Part shown: positions 39,001 through 45,000 of the stretch, piece by piece
Layout of the letters: the number at the start of each line of letters is the position of its first letter
Numbering within the stretch: the stretch's first letter is position 1
Assembly (NCBI GenBank): GCA_965223295.1
Contig: CBDCWC010000003.1
Location: 992,001 to 1,056,000, forward strand
Origin: Nitrospirales bacterium
GTDB taxonomy: Bacteria > Nitrospirota > Nitrospiria > Nitrospirales > UBA8639
Length of the DNA stretch: 64,000 nucleotides
Direction: 5' to 3'
Made by a program: the position numbers

Positions 39001-42000
39001 GCCAGTGATTCAAAAGCCCTGTTGATCTCCGAAAGGTATGTTTCTGCGCGAGCAACGCCCCATTGTTCGAGGCTGTATCTGTAAATGTCTTCCAAGTCGT
39101 GTAGCGCTCTCGGCCGTAACTGAATCGACCTATTCGACATAATACTTTTTTCTCATGTCTCCCAAGAATTCCTCCAAGGCAAATCTGACAGGTTCCCCGC
39201 TTTGTTCGCCTTCTTCGATTAGGCGGCGGAGGGCTTTCAGTTTTGTATCGTCTTCTTCCAGTCGTCGGATGCCAGCCCGTATCAACTCTGATTGGGTTTT
39301 GTAGCTACCTTCTTGAAGTTGCCCTGCGATAAACTGTGCATCCTGGTCACTGGGTTCAAAGGTAATAGTATGTTGTTTCATGACCTCTCCTATTTATAAG
39401 AATATATCTTATATTACTGTATCGCACATTCACAAGACAGGCAACTTTTTTACCTCTTAGTTTCTCAGTTCGGTTTCAAGTTATATATTGTGACGCCGGG
39501 TTTCGGTAAAAGTAGCCAAAACTCATAGACGCCCTGTTCAGTGAAGTTTAAGTAGGGCGGACGCAAGCCAACAGAGGGCGGATTAACTCACTTGGCTCAG
39601 AAAAGATCCATCGAATTCAAAGAGTGTCCGCCCCGAGGGTCAAACAGCAGGCGTTGTCGAAGGAGAAATAGAACGTTGTATGACAAGACCTGAAACCAAA
39701 TGTTTTTATCTGGTCAGCAAGATTTTCAGGAATTTTGAGCCTTCTCATTCGCATAATATTAGTATATACTTTTAGTATTACTATGTTAAGGAGAGCAAGC
39801 TGATGAGTAAAGTATTGTCACTGAAATTAGATGAGACAGAGTTTCAGCAAACTGAAAAGATTCGGAAACGTCTTAAACTCCCTCGCAATACCTATATTCG
39901 TAAAGCACTGGACCACTTTAACGCCTTATATACAAGGAAAGGTTTAGCACAAGACTATCAGAAAGCCTCCAAACGATTAGCCGTTGGACATCTTGCCTAT
40001 TTACAAGAAACAGAATTATTGGATGATCTGCCTGAAAAGATATGACGCCTCGCTACGGCCATGTCTATTTGGCTGATCTCAATCCTCGGTTTGGAACCGA
40101 ACCGGGAAAAATTCGTCCGGTGGTCGTCGTTCAAACTGATGCCTTGAATCCGTATCACCTCTCTACGCTCATTTGTCCGCTAACGACACAAATTGATGAA
40201 GAAGAGACTCCCCTCCGAGTAGCGGTGCCGAAAGGCGTCTCAGGCTTAAACGCGGCCTCAGACATTCTTATCGATCAAATCAAAGCAATTGATAATCAAC
40301 GATTTCGGCGTAAGCTAGGTATGCTACCTGAGGCGTACCTCAACGAACTACGTCATAAACTACTGCTGGTTTTGGATTTTGTAGAAGAAGCGCACTCGCA
40401 CAGTGAACCGTAAAATCAGGACACTTTACCGCTAAGAGAATTCAACCCCGTTGATTATTTAATTCCGCCATCTCTATTCATCTTCGTCATTCCTGCGAAG
40501 GCAGGAATCCAGGTTCGACCATTCTCTTTAGAACTCTCTGCAAAAGTTACGGAATAAGGTAGAATAGTCCTCACGCAAACCACGATGCAAGCAAGGTCAG
40601 GTCTTGGAATGCAACTCCTATGGATACTGAAGTTGAGAGATCTGATTCTTGAAACGGAATGTTGATGACTTCAGAGCCCGACCAATTCTCTCAATGCCGA
40701 ATGAGAGCTCATTCGGTTGAGTATGATTTCCAGGCAATCGAAATTTCCATTCCTTTCTCGCGTTATCTCGACTTCTTTCCGGTCCATTCTAATCTGAAGA
40801 TGTCAGCAAAATGTGTTGTGACTTGTTCTCGCACCTGTCCTGAATCTACTTGTTGACCAAGAATTTTCTGTATTGACGTCATAGTACAATGTTCAATGCC
40901 ACATGGGGTTAAAAGCGAAAATGGCTGGAGATCAACGTTCACATTGAGGGCAAAGCCGTGCATGGTGATGCCTTTTGTGATGCGTACGCCGATGGAGGCG
41001 ATTTTTTCTATATGATCTTCTCTGTCCTTTACCCATACACCTCGAAACTTCTCATGCCGGCATCCCTCAATTCCCCAATCCTGTAACGTTCGGATTAATA
41101 CTTCTTCTAGTTTCTGAACATAGATTTTGGGGCCAGAACAAAAGTTGTGCAATTGGAGAATGGGGTAGCCAATAACCTGACCAGGAGCATGGAACGTCAC
41201 CGAGCCGCCTCGGTTTGTCCGATGTAATCCGATTCCCTGTCTTTGCAGTTCTGTCCAATGTGGTTTCCAATGTTCGGGTTTGGTGGTTTTTCCAAGAGTG
41301 AGGATTGGTTCATGCTCTGTGAGAATTAATGTATCGAGGATGGACCCGTTGTACCGCTTTTCAACCAATGACTGTTGAAGTTGAAGACCCTCGGCAAAAG
41401 GCAGAGAAGGGATGGAAAGTATCGTGCCCTGTTGAGGCAGATTTTCTCGCATCATAGATCGAAAGAAAATAGCGAGTTAGTTGGAAGAAGACGAGGTCTC
41501 TGCTGTGATTTTTAAGGCCTCCAAAATCTGTGCAGGAATGCGTTTGACCTTACCCATAGAATCTACGGAAACCAGGGTCGCAGAACCTTCTACGACTAAG
41601 CGTTGGCTGGTGCGCTCTCGAATCGTATGAGAAAAGGTGATGGAGATACGGCGATCAGCCAAAACGGTCGTATCCACAATCAATGTTTCACCGTGGACGG
41701 CAGCGGAACGGTAGGTCAGTTCCGCTTTGGTCACGCGGAACTCTGTTCCCTGCTGCATAAGCTCGGTGACGGACAACCCATGTTCTTCGAGAAAGTGCGT
41801 TCGCGCCCGTTCAAAGTACTTGAGGTAATTGGCATAGTAGACGACACCTCCACAATCAGTGTCTTCATAATAAATTCGTACCTCCATGTAAGGGTATCGA
41901 CGACTTTAGATTTTTAATGTGGGAAAGGCTGGAAGGTCTGCCATAACAGTTCCCGTCATCTTCATGGTCAGCTCGAAGAATTGGTGGAATCGTTCAGGCT

Positions 42001-45000
42001 TAAGCGATTCAAACCCAAAACCCAATACTGCATGATCGGCCGCATCAAACAAGGACTTCATTTTTGGCCATTCGTTCACAAAACGTTGGCCCAAAGGATC
42101 ATCCAGTCCGGCCAAAGCTTGAAATTGAGCCAGGGGTGGCAGACGATATTTCCCATCAATGTCGTTGAGGTAACAGGTGCGACAAGTTTCTTGCAGGTCT
42201 TTGGGAAGTTTCTCGAGGTTGATATCCCAACTTTTTAATTGATGGTGTTCAAACAATTGATATTGTGCCGCAGCTTCAAGCGCGCGTCGAAGTACTCGGG
42301 TAGCGACTTCTATCTCACGGCTTCTCTCGCTCCGGCGTTTTGCCCATGCCAAGAGATCGCGCATGAGAGAAGGTTTGATTTCCTTGGCATCCAGGACGAT
42401 AGATTCGAGAAATCGCATATTCTCTTTGAGAGACTTGATCATGCGGTCCATACCAGGCGGCCCGCCCCATACGGAAGCCAGTTCCAAAGCCTTGATCCCG
42501 TTTTTCAGTTTTTCCCAGGCCTGACGATAGAGAAATTGCTCCCAAAAACCATAACCTTTGGCGATATCTGCCAGGGCGCGATAGAACGGTTTTGAGCCTC
42601 CACTTACACGATGCTCCAATGTCTGAAAGGTTCGTGCAGCAGCTTCATGCCATCCGTGATTGAACAACTCGCAGGCTTCTTGGCGAATTCTGAGTGCCTC
42701 GGCATCCCATGGGTTTTCTGAGCCGGATGAATCAGAAGAGGGAGCGGATCCGTCTTCTTGATTTGGCGATGTGGTATCCAAGAAGATCTGAGTAGAGAAG
42801 GGAAACCCTCCCAAGGTCATGGCGGAAGCCATAGCGACAGAAGCGCCCGTTAAATCAATGGTCAGATCCCCTGCTGAAATCTCCCATGTGTTTAACAGAG
42901 GAGGCAAACCCTCTGTTACGGCTTTGTGGCATGCGGCAAAACTCTTATCATCAGGTGTCAAAATCCAATCCCAGCGTTTCGGCATGCGAGAAAGGGCTGG
43001 ATGCACATCAGTTTCAACTACGTGCTTGGATGAGTCGTGCAGAAAAAAGCACACCATCTCAGGGCTGAGCCGCTGTAGAATGGTGACGGCGGGTGCCGGA
43101 TCGGTTTGAACGGCCAAGAGGAGTGCTTTTGTTGGTAGAGAGGCACTCACAATGCATCTGACTATATCATTGGTTGAAGAAGGCAGCAAGGAATGTGACT
43201 CTGAATCTACTGTTCCCTTCGTTCCGTGCCCTGTGCATGTGAAATTTGCCTGCTATCCTGCTACACTCCCAGCATTATGGAAATTGAGGACGTGATTGAA
43301 GCATTTGAAACAAGTGCCGATGTGAAAAATGCGTTTATTCGTACACATGCTGAACGCGTTGTCGAAGTTGGACAATTGCTGATTCGGGCCTTCCGCGATG
43401 GTAAAAAAGCCATGCTGTTTGGGAATGGAGGCAGTGCGACGGACGCTTCCCATATTGCAGCAGAGTTTGTGGGCCGGTATCGTCGAGATCGTGAACCGTT
43501 GCCTGCCCTGGCTTTGTGTACCGACACGGCGGTCTTAACCTGTGTCGCTAACGATTACGATTTTTCTGATATTTTCTCCCGCCAAATCCAGGCCCATGCT
43601 CGAAAAGGTGATGTGGCGATAGCAATCAGCACCAGCGGGAACTCCTTGAATGTCATCCGAGGGGCGGAAACTGCTCATGAACGTGGAATGACGGTCGTGG
43701 GATGGACAGGCGCGGGCGGGGGAAAACTGGCTGATGTGGTGGACTATTGCTTTACGGTGCCTTCTTCCGTCACGGCACGCATTCAGGAATGTCATATCAC
43801 CCTCGGCCATGTGTTGTGCGAATTCATTGAAGAGCGACTCTTTGGCGACCAAGACTAAATCATCATCCTCTCCCATCGGGCCCAAGCTAAATTTGGCTCG
43901 GCTGCGTACGTATCCCCTCCAGACTCGACATTCCAAAGTGAATATGAAAGATGGTGCCACTCCATGGCGTCGTGGGGGTGCATTTCAGAAATTTCTTCAA
44001 ACTCTTCCCAATATTTTAGCAGGACAAACGTTCAACGCCGTGGTGTCCGCAATAGTCACGGCCCGGCAGCGAGGGAAACCTGTGATCTTGGGAATGGGAG
44101 CGCACGCCACAAAAGTTGGGCTGAATCCTATTCTTGTTGACTTAATGCGTAAAGAAGTGATCACCGCAGTGGCAGTGAACGGAGCGGTCATCATTCATGA
44201 TTTTGAATTAGCCTATCAAGGACACACATCAGAAGAAGTCGAAACGGAAATTGACACCGGACGATTTGGCATGGCGGAGGATACCGGACGTATTCTAAAC
44301 GAAGCCATTGTCAATGGGTGGCAAAAGGGGTTGGGCTTAGGAGAATCGGTGGGGCGTTACATGATATCGCATCCCAGGCAATTTCCCCATCGGCGTTCAA
44401 GTGTGCTCGCGACCGGTGCACGATTGAGCATTCCAGTCACCGTTCATGTGGCTATTGGAACGGATATTATTCATATGCATCCCAATGCCAATGGCGAAGC
44501 GATTGGTGGTGGGTCATTGGCAGATTTTCGTAAGTTGGCGGCATTGGTCTCAAAGATGGAAAATGGCGTCTATATTAACCTAGGTTCCGCAGTTCTTCTC
44601 CCTGAAGTTTTTTTGAAAACGGTAACCTTGGGGAGGAATTTAGGGCGTGCGCTCAACCGCATTACCACCGTCAATATGGATTTTCTTCCGCATTATCGCC
44701 CTATGACTAATGTCGTCAAACGGCCAACTCAAAAAGGCGGAAAAGGGTTTAATTTGGTCGGACATCATGAAATAATGGTTCCCCTGTTGGCTGCGGCAGT
44801 ATTAGAAGGACTGAAACACTGAAAATATCCTAACCATTCAGATGTCTTTATCGATTTGTCATGAGCCGCATGTGGCTTTTTAGAGGATGCTTATGAAAAA
44901 GAAAATCCTGATTGTCGATGATCATCCCGACATTGTGCTGATGCTTGCTGATCGCCTGGAGGCCCTGAATTACGAAACAATCAAGGCTGGAAACGGGAAG

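What a model noticed while it worked through the whole genome (the two positions that open the first line are those of the whole stretch)
41906..43150. An orphan Csm6 with a dead HEPN site kept as a core gene without CRISPR
g02696 is a full CARF-6H-HEPN protein of the Thermus Csm6 fold in a genome with no cas genes or arrays. It is inherited vertically among housekeeping genes across Nitrospirales while its HEPN R-x6-H nuclease motif decays stepwise, pointing to a domesticated nucleotide-sensing protein rather than a defence RNase.
Evidence so far: Fold match to TtCsm6 E 5e-10. Csm6_6H in 392 of 511 order genomes, 0.6% of bacteria; neighbour of the YbgC thioesterase in 320 order genomes of 322 overall. 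No other cas row here; Cas10 over cut-off in 2 of 31 (Csm1, call 47) and 1 of 21 (Cmr2, call 230) family genomes. Motif RNxSILAH in an outgroup family, ANHAxLGH in Nitrospiraceae, ADHAVLGF here; Arg replaced by Ala in 118 of 120 homologues, His kept in 8.
(Added by a program. Inside this text positions count along the whole contig: contig position 992,001 is position 1 of the stretch shown here. "Call 12" and the like, gene names such as g00115 and contig names such as C1 are that model's own, and its searches are not shown. The text may have been shortened before it was handed on; [...] marks where a part breaks off. The agent that wrote the report below was given it as the finding of a first reader that could run no searches.)

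Follow-up and report, generated by a model that had tools for sequence, protein, structure and literature searches.

The report
Disarmed CRISPR nuclease kept by Nitrospirales
Nitrospirales bacteria keep, as an ordinary inherited gene, a former CRISPR defence RNase that has lost both its signal-sensing and its cutting residues, which suggests it was repurposed for an unknown cellular job.

Summary
Confirmed: window 41906-43150(-) encodes a 414-aa Thermus-type Csm6 (CARF-6H-HEPN), found in 367 of 401 Nitrospirales genomes. It is vertically inherited, under purifying selection (dN/dS 0.14) and sits behind a conserved leaderless promoter. Only 23 of 401 genomes have a Cas10-type hit.

The lysine TtCsm6 needs to bind cA4 (K137) is present in 0 of 112 Nitrospirales copies versus 107 of 108 distant relatives; the HEPN arginine in 0 of 112 versus 108 of 108. 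So 'nucleotide sensor' is not supported.

Constraint has moved to the 6H linker, the least conserved domain in distant Csm6 relatives and the most conserved here. Outgroups give a series: CRISPR-locus Csm6, then intact stand-alone copies among housekeeping genes, then half-decayed copies, then the dead clade.

Best reading (0.5): a non-catalytic homodimeric adaptor binding an unknown cellular partner through 6H. It is not essential (four closed small genomes deleted it) and YbgC is not an obligate partner. Loss of activity is inferred from sequence only. Makarova 2020 clustered the family and could not be read.

The parts
41906..43150 (-). Degenerate Csm6 gene (TIGR02710 / TtCsm6 type), 414 aa, GTG start
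42782..43138 (-). CARF domain (aa 5-123); fold kept, cA4 pocket erased
   Evidence: Fold matches Cam1/Can2/Card1 CARF domains, Z 13-14, rmsd 2.2-3.2 over 114-117 residues; motif counts
43097..43114 (-). Former CARF motif I (family SVGGSP; here AVQTDP). Asp at the Ser/Thr position in 100 of 112 Nitrospirales copies
   Evidence: Mapping to TtCsm6 G58-T59-S60 is inferred from position after strand 1, not from a direct alignment
42830..42856 (-). Former CARF motif II (family DYTGGTKxM; here DLTGASVAM). The K137-equivalent is Val here and Pro in 74 of 112
   Evidence: Direct alignment to TtCsm6; counts
42716..42781 (-). Former cA4 lid loop (aa 124-145); unconserved and low-confidence (pLDDT under 50 at 127-144)
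42389..42715 (-). 6H helical domain (aa 146-254); most conserved domain of the dead clade, with SGGxKPxY and WGGPxG loops and invariant Lys/Trp residues; proposed binding surface
41909..42388 (-). HEPN domain (aa 255-414); fold and predicted dimer contacts kept
42017..42040 (-). Former HEPN catalytic motif R-N-x4-5-H, here ADHAVLGF (aa 371-378)
43161..43189 (-). Predicted sigma70-type promoter TTGCTG-N17-TATAGT with extended -10 TG, ending 10 nt before the start codon; no Shine-Dalgarno sequence, so a leaderless-type message is inferred
   Evidence: Sequence. TGnTATnnT 6-11 nt before the start in 104 of 107 loci, with the upstream TTG in 99; SD-like sequence in 1 of 107
41477..41887 (-). ybgC-like acyl-CoA thioesterase 18 nt downstream; probable operon partner, not obligate
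43277..43858 (+). gmhA (phosphoheptose isomerase), divergent neighbour; used as synteny control

Best explanation
This is an exapted pseudo-enzyme: a Thermus-type Csm6 that left the type III CRISPR locus, gained a second, non-catalytic job, and then lost both cA4 sensing and RNase chemistry. SHOWN by sequence and genomics: both active sites are erased; the gene is essentially single-copy and vertically inherited, under purifying selection, and behind a conserved leaderless-type promoter; constraint has shifted to the 6H domain. MODELLED: it is still the Csm6 homodimer. INFERRED: the CARF and HEPN halves now act mainly as dimerisation scaffolds that hold two TPR-like 6H arms. The invariant Gly loops (SGGxKP, WGGPxG) and Lys/Arg/Trp residues of 6H (R156, K187, W212, K216, K220, K242) bind an acidic or phosphate-bearing cellular partner constitutively. 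An RNA or ribonucleoprotein is slightly more likely than a protein. The partner is not identified.
For: Lys at the K137 position: 0 of 112 Nitrospirales copies, 7 of 7 stand-alone outgroup copies, 107 of 108 distant relatives. HEPN Arg: 0 of 112, 7 of 7, 108 of 108. TtCsm6 K137A loses cA4 binding, and R415A, N416A or H422A lose RNase activity (PMC10897365). dN/dS is 0.14 in 36 of 38 independent pairs that passed the dS filter; neighbours ybgC 0.15, lipB 0.18, gmhA 0.08. The tree shows one Nitrospirales clade (SH-aLRT 99) whose three subclades follow the families, nested among intact stand-alone copies (100). At matched 40-50% overall identity, CARF/6H/HEPN identities are 45/35/47% for distant pairs (276 pairs) and 42/53/48% for dead pairs (1562 pairs); the shift is already present in dead-vs-outgroup pairs, 37/51/39%. 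Motifs decayed separately in several stand-alone lineages (P0122 with L162-L165, P0126, P0128, P0131, L127), as expected if the RNase had become dispensable. The homodimer model scores 0.85 against a best control of 0.00; the mark was reached by 20 of 30 solved homo-pairs and 1 of 23 single chains; runs agree in at least 61% of contacts; pLDDT is at least 86; the pass may reflect likeness to solved Csm6 dimers. Cas10-type hits over cut-off occur in only 23 of 401 genomes.
Against: There are no biochemical or expression data and no partner was found. The role of 6H rests on conservation alone: the pairs are not independent, and the conserved Gly, Pro and Trp residues could be structural. The TPR-like fold matches of 6H (Z 8-9) are in the range of common helical bundles. 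The net charge of 6H is only mildly positive (+0.6 to +2.6 vs +0.1). A His survives at position 372, 373 or 378 in 109 of 112 copies, next to invariant D369 and R289, so new chemistry at the HEPN dyad is not excluded. Four closed genomes deleted the gene, so the job is dispensable in some lineages.
Confidence: 0.5

Rival explanations
1. Retuned small-molecule sensor: the CARF dimer pocket now binds a different ligand and signals through the old allosteric path to a non-catalytic output.
For: The CARF fold and its dimer interface are kept. Some CARF residues are newly conserved: D17, E39, E46, W60-D61-W62. T/S104 is retained.
Against: All phosphate- and adenine-binding positions mapped here are lost, and an Asp sits at the phosphate-binding Ser position. 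The lid loop is unconserved. CARF is the least conserved domain. No Cas10, SMODS or DAC cyclase was found in G000.
Confidence: 0.15
2. Residual, non-canonical enzyme or metal site at the HEPN two-fold, built from H372/H373, D369, R289 and sometimes H378; for example a slow, specific RNA-processing activity freed from cA4 control.
For: His at 372 or 373 in 102 of 112 copies vs 14 of 108 distant relatives. R289 and D369 are invariant. Csm6-2 has a HEPN whose Arg and His are 73 residues apart (PMC11229360).
Against: The His position differs between lineages. The catalytic Arg is Ala/Val/Thr in 112 of 112, and the neighbouring D282, R286 and Y288 of active forms are also lost. R289 and residues 368-380 lie in the modelled dimer interface, which can explain their conservation.
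Confidence: 0.12
3. Partner or regulator of the downstream YbgC-like thioesterase.
For: Same strand, 5-25 nt gap in most f1 and f3 loci. Order-wide table: both 334, Csm6 only 33, ybgC only 3, neither 31. Adjacency is seen only in the fully dead clade, not in outgroup loci.
Against: The two genes separate in closed genomes: six single-contig genomes have Csm6 without a ybgC match (G049, G061, G070, G090, G111, G140), and G014 keeps ybgC after a clean Csm6 deletion. dN/dS stays 0.26 in a pair lacking ybgC (L098/L099). Many joint absences also lack gmhA, which points to assembly gaps. Decay began in lineages with other neighbours.
Confidence: 0.1
4. Still a defence factor: a decoy or sponge for phage anti-CRISPR proteins, or a brake that heterodimerises with incoming active Csm6.
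For: Defence ancestry. Cas10 lies elsewhere in 3 of 5 outgroup genomes with intact stand-alone copies. G042 and G036 carry a second, intact, unrelated Csm6.
Against: Slow, vertical, near-universal inheritance among housekeeping genes. About 94% of genomes have no Cas10 hit over cut-off.
Confidence: 0.08
5. Function-less remnant kept by linkage to ybgC/gmhA.
For: Clean losses in four closed small genomes.
Against: dN/dS 0.14, 36 invariant columns among 80 sequences down to 40% identity, and a conserved promoter in 104 of 107 loci.
Confidence: 0.03

Closest known systems
Thermus thermophilus Csm6 (TtCsm6; PDB 5FSH, 8JH1, 8JBB, 8JBC) / TIGR02710 family
   Same: CARF-6H-HEPN architecture and fold; modelled homodimer through the CARF and HEPN two-folds; scores above the TIGR02710 cut-off.
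   Different: cA4-binding motifs I and II, the lid loop and the HEPN R-N-H triad are all lost; no link to a type III locus; near-universal and vertical in one order; 6H, not CARF or HEPN, is the most conserved domain.
PADLOC profile PDLC01812 (CARF1--CARF_HEPN; by its name a cluster of the Makarova 2020 classification, which is an inference)
   Same: Full-length match, E 5e-161, probably this very clade.
   Different: The profile labels it a CARF_HEPN effector. Whether the paper notes inactivation or stand-alone status is unknown: it is not held.
Stand-alone CARF regulators Csa3 (PDB 6WXQ, cA4-bound) and RtcR (recalled)
   Same: CARF domain used outside an RNase effector role; the CARF fold matches Csa3 at Z 11.7, rmsd 3.0, 116 aligned.
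   Different: Those keep a ligand pocket and carry an HTH or AAA+ output (RtcR detail recalled); here the pocket is degenerate and the output domain is a dead HEPN.
Catalytically inactive HEPN proteins (e.g. Swt1 HEPN) predicted to bind nucleic acid (PMC3710099)
   Same: HEPN fold with the motif lost; a binding role is proposed.
   Different: That paper lists the Cas_Cas02710 Csm6 family as motif-conserved and, in the passages read, does not describe this clade; here the sensor domain is dead as well.

Membership tests
Csm6 (TtCsm6 / TIGR02710 type), by descent | CARF-6H-HEPN architecture and fold | tested here: met
   Pfam, NCBIfam, PADLOC; Foldseek E 1.1e-10; VIA Z 16.8, rmsd 17.1, 371 aligned
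Csm6 (TtCsm6 / TIGR02710 type), by descent | Homodimer with composite CARF and HEPN two-folds | tested here: inconclusive
   Model supports binding: 0.85 vs best control 0.00; mark reached by 20 of 30 homo-pairs and 1 of 23 single chains; may pass by likeness to solved Csm6
Functional cA4-activated Csm6 effector | CARF motif II T-G-G-T-K (TtCsm6 K137, needed for cA4 binding) | tested here: not met
   Lys in 0 of 112; G.K motif 0 of 112 vs 106 of 108
Functional cA4-activated Csm6 effector | CARF motif I G-G/T-S/T and the adenine-binding Ser/Thr after strand 2 | tested here: not met
   Motif I 0 of 112 vs 94 of 108; position 38 is Ser in 23 of 112 vs Ser/Thr in 108 of 108; mapping to TtCsm6 numbering is inferred
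Functional cA4-activated Csm6 effector | Mobile lid loop and conserved Tyr (ring-nuclease and allostery elements) | tested here: not met
   Lid motif 0 of 112 vs 64 of 108; the Tyr at column 124 is 99% conserved in distant relatives and lost in Nitrospirales
Functional cA4-activated Csm6 effector | HEPN R-X4-6-H motif (R415, N416, H422) | tested here: not met
   Arg 0 of 112, Asn 19 of 112, His 59 of 112
Functional cA4-activated Csm6 effector | Encoded with or alongside a type III system (Cas10) | tested here: not met
   None in G000; 23 of 401 order genomes over cut-off; neighbours are housekeeping genes
Functional cA4-activated Csm6 effector | cOA-stimulated RNase activity in vitro | not testable with these tools
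   Needs purified protein
Minimal Cas10 polymerase + CARF-HEPN abortive-infection module (PMC8730458) | Adjacent minimal Cas10-like polymerase gene | tested here: not met
   The recurring neighbours are ybgC, gmhA, lipB, GSU2086-family and two-component genes; no Cas10 palm domain in G000
Stand-alone CARF transcription regulators (Csa3, RtcR) | HTH or AAA+ output domain fused to CARF | tested here: not met
   The whole length is accounted for by CARF, 6H and HEPN (TIGR02710 covers aa 20-398; Pfam)

The most novel reading that the evidence does not exclude
A type III CRISPR effector fully domesticated into a housekeeping adaptor. A stand-alone Csm6 in an ancestral Nitrospirota lineage evolved a new binding surface on its 6H linker while still an intact RNase. 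The moonlighting job then outlived immunity: sensor and nuclease decayed independently in several lineages, and the doubly dead dimer became a near-core gene of Nitrospirales, binding a conserved cellular RNA or complex.
Probability: 0.35. Interest if true: 0.78.

Novelty: new variant of a known kind. Interest (0 to 1): 0.6.

Why it matters
The cases of CRISPR exaptation in the review passages read here (PMC8730458) concern whole systems, mobile elements or repeat-derived RNAs. A single cOA effector fixed across a whole bacterial order after losing both active sites would be a clean protein-level case, and its intermediates survive in living genomes. It predicts a testable new function for the 6H domain. 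It also warns that several hundred genomes of nitrite oxidisers carry a 'CRISPR-associated CARF protein' annotation that passes TIGR02710 and PADLOC profiles but is probably not an immune effector.

Tried and rejected
Sequence search of the PDB with the single protein found nothing significant; the profile reached TtCsm6 only at E 5e-4. The ESM Atlas gave only Csm6/TIGR02710-type or unnamed look-alike clusters, with no other family as a lead. Sequencing runs: no RNA holder listed, which says nothing on expression; no reads were laid. The consensus promoter scanner did not list the promoter, because TTGCTG matches only 3 of 6 at -35; the claim rests on cross-locus conservation, with a loose background of 48 of 1926 long ORFs in G000. 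The 427-aa TTG start listed was rejected: that TTG is the -35 box, and homologues start at the GTG. The GSU2086 control was translated out of frame and was dropped. The 'TAG inside' flag for G014 ybgC was not taken as a pseudogene sign, because the match covers residues 1-126 and similar flags occur in relatives. The Fisher test on Csm6/ybgC co-occurrence was not used as evidence, because linkage, assembly gaps and kinship inflate it. The careful tree did not finish; the quick IQ-TREE result is used. TPR-like matches of 6H (SRP68-RBD Z 9.3, MIT Z 8.5) are not distinguishable from common helical bundles. No complex with YbgC was modelled. Literature: searches found no paper describing this clade. 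Makarova 2020 (PMC7498327) and its supplements are not held and may bear on novelty. One supplement file of PMC12669027 could not be read. The Adt1 preprint proved irrelevant.
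Full report
THE GENE. Window 41906-43150 on the minus strand encodes a 414-aa protein from a GTG start. It matches Pfam Csm6_6H (aa 156-225) and the Cas_Cas02710 HEPN (aa 260-398), TIGR02710 above its cut-off and PADLOC PDLC01812 at E 5e-161. An AlphaFold2 model (pLDDT 85.5, pTM 0.62) matches Thermus Csm6 best (Foldseek E 1.1e-10; VIA Z 16.8, rmsd 17.1, 371 aligned). Its N-terminal domain superposes on the CARF domains of Cam1, Can2 and Card1 (Z 13-14). The gene lies between a divergent gmhA and, 18 nt downstream, a ybgC-like thioesterase and lipB. G000 (100% complete) gave no Cas10 palm domain, Cas1, SMODS or DAC match, and no array in a 20-mer repeat scan.

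DISTRIBUTION. The protein is found in 367 of 401 genomes of the order, and 298 of 318 good-quality ones. By family the counts are f1 102 of 114, f2 249 of 260, f3 15 of 21 and f4 0 of 5, nearly always one match per genome (the tallies include the unpublished G280 and G394). Cas10-type hits pass the cut-off in 23 of the same 401, 20 of them strongly. Of the 34 genomes without the gene, 18 also lack a gmhA match, which suggests assembly gaps for many. Real losses exist: in four single-contig genomes of the small-genome genus g2 (G014, G078, G104, G120) the syntenic site holds gmhA and the downstream gene but no trace of the Csm6 gene. It is a near-core gene, not an essential one.

BOTH ACTIVE SITES ARE GONE. 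I compared 112 distinct near-full-length Nitrospirales copies with 7 stand-alone outgroup copies and 108 distant full-length relatives. The 112 are 79 f1, 25 f2 and 8 f3; named loci without a family label were assigned by me from similarity and the tree; fragments under 85% coverage and duplicates were dropped. The HEPN Arg is kept in 0 of 112, 7 of 7 and 108 of 108. His is kept in 59 of 112 (27 of 79 in f1, 24 of 25 in f2, 8 of 8 in f3). New here is the CARF pocket. The lysine aligned to TtCsm6 K137 is kept in 0 of 112 (Pro 74, Val 17, Ala 11), 7 of 7 and 107 of 108. Motif I G.[ST] is kept in 0 of 112, 4 of 7 and 94 of 108, with Asp at the Ser/Thr position in 100 of 112. The lid-loop motif is kept in 0 of 112, 3 of 7 and 64 of 108. 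In TtCsm6, K137A abolishes cA4 binding, T59A/S60A abolishes cleavage and activation, lid mutants abolish RNase activation, and R415A, N416A or H422A abolish RNase activity (PMC10897365, parts 2 and 3 of the text read). Mapping of motif I and the lid to TtCsm6 numbers is by position, not by direct alignment. Loss of activity is inferred, not measured. One result cuts the other way: a His stays at position 372, 373 or 378 in 109 of 112, and at 372/373 in 102 of 112 against 14 of 108 distant relatives.

IT IS STILL SELECTED. Nei-Gojobori dN/dS over 36 of 38 independent pairs (dS 0.05-1.5) is 0.14 pooled, against ybgC 0.15 (30 pairs), lipB 0.18 (12), gmhA 0.08 (24) and the sigma54 regulator 0.09 (21). 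An extended -10 element TGnTATnnT lies 6-11 nt before the start codon in 104 of 107 loci, 99 with a TTG at the -35 distance. An SD-like sequence occurs in 1 of 107. A looser pattern occurs before 48 of 1926 long ORFs of G000. This points to a conserved housekeeping promoter and a leaderless-type message; no RNA data were available.

EVOLUTIONARY SERIES. Across the phylum (130 of 401 genomes) three grades appear outside the dead clade. (i) Distant intact copies lie beside cas genes: L131, L132, L133 and L135 with Cas10, and L136 and L139 with cas1/cas6; L134, L137 and L138 showed no cas gene by Pfam among the ORFs scanned (104 of 232 ORFs scanned). (ii) Intact stand-alone copies lie among housekeeping genes in G669 (same class; murJ, glmM-like, trp) and family f23 (NAD kinase, rho, a release factor, his and hem genes); 3 of 5 such genomes have Cas10 elsewhere. 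(iii) Half-decayed copies: P0122 and L162-L165 (Lys to Pro/Gln, Arg to Gln/Tyr/His, no ybgC beside them), plus separate decay in P0126, P0128, P0131 and L127. The quick IQ-TREE tree (89 rows; careful search unfinished, midpoint root) joins grades ii-iii and the Nitrospirales copies in one clade (SH-aLRT 100). The dead copies form one clade (99) with P0131 and P0122 as successive sisters, and its three subclades match f3 (100), f2 (91) and f1 (99). The intact second copies in G042 and G036 fall outside that clade. So the Arg and Lys were lost on or before the stem of the order; only the His decays within it.

WHERE THE CONSTRAINT WENT. Among pairs of 40-50% overall identity, CARF/6H/HEPN identities are 45/35/47% for distant relatives (276 pairs), 42/53/48% for dead copies (1562 pairs) and 37/51/39% for dead versus intact stand-alone copies (179 pairs) (pairs are not independent). 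The linker that is most variable in distant Csm6 relatives is the most conserved part here, and became so before inactivation. Its invariant or near-invariant residues include R156, G184, K187, P188, W212, K216, K220, G229-P231, K242 and N244. The homodimer model supports binding: score 0.85, best of 3 controls 0.00, the mark reached by 20 of 30 solved homo-pairs and 1 of 23 single chains, at least 61% contact agreement, pLDDT at least 86, possibly by likeness to solved Csm6. Its named contacts cover the CARF helix 100-116, the old catalytic helix 365-382 and 277-296, but none of the 6H residues above. The tool warns that an unnamed residue may still touch, so this is only consistent with a free surface.

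YbgC. The adjacency is old and tight: 74 of 80 loci L031-L110, 7 of 10 in L111-L120 and 22 of 22 in L140-L161, with gaps of 5-25 nt in most f1 and f3 loci and larger, variable gaps in f2. Over 401 genomes the table is both 334, Csm6 only 33, ybgC only 3, neither 31. But six single-contig genomes keep Csm6 with no ybgC match, G014 keeps ybgC alone, and selection persists without ybgC. An operon is likely; an obligate complex is not.

MECHANISM AND RIVALS. Best reading (0.5): a constitutively made, non-catalytic Csm6-shaped dimer whose 6H arms bind a cellular partner, more likely RNA or a ribonucleoprotein than a protein given the invariant Lys, Arg and Trp residues. That last step is inference. 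Rivals: retuned ligand sensor 0.15, new chemistry at the HEPN dyad 0.12, YbgC regulator 0.10, defence decoy 0.08, remnant 0.03.

COMPARISON WITH WHAT IS KNOWN. By descent and fold it belongs to the TtCsm6/TIGR02710 family. It fails every tested feature of a working cA4-activated effector. PMC3710099 (passages) lists this family as motif-conserved and predicts binding roles for inactive HEPNs in general. PMC8730458 (passages) and PMC12669027 (passages and two of three supplement files) discuss exaptation and CARF classes without this case in what I read. PMC13187428, PMC11229360 and a bioRxiv preprint on Adt1 were seen as passages only. Eight full-text searches found no description of the clade. 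Makarova 2020 is not held; I saw nothing of it, and it may note this cluster.

VERDICT. A real feature and a new variant of a known kind: interest 0.6.

Noticed in passing
window 38841-40413: Two type II toxin-antitoxin pairs (ParD/ParE at 38841-39381, and a MazF/PemK toxin at 40042-40413 with a small upstream ORF) sit between lipB and the SDR gene, a site with variable content across relatives.
   Followed up: no
window 43240-43279: The divergent gmhA also appears to have a -10-like hexamer (TACACT) about 9 nt before its ATG, so both genes may be leaderless.
   Followed up: no
window 43734-44822: A GSU2086-family, deoxyhypusine-synthase-like gene is co-conserved right after gmhA across the order; function unknown.
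   Followed up: no
L110, L119, L120, L147, L148, L150, L151, L156, L160 upstream of the Csm6 gene: A two-gene pair that looks like an SPFH/stomatin protein plus an NfeD-like membrane protein (judged by eye from the sequence) is inserted between gmhA and the Csm6 gene in many f2 genomes.
   Followed up: no
L126 4960-6150, L127 519-1709; proteins P0126, P0128: Independent, ongoing decay of CARF and HEPN motifs in stand-alone copies outside Nitrospirales, i.e. parallel inactivation.
   Followed up: partly
L131 10502-12266, L135 9754-11506, L139 9366-11259: These cas loci carry two tandem Cas1-domain ORFs, one full and one matching only the N-terminal part.
   Followed up: no
L137 8115-9494, L139 7806-9218: Two f2 genomes (G042, G036) with Cas10 carry a second, intact Csm6 unrelated to the dead core copy.
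   Followed up: partly
L069 8001-9265, L104 2884-4147: Frameshifted copies of the gene in two assemblies; L069 also has split cofC and GT2 neighbours, so sequencing error is likely.
   Followed up: no
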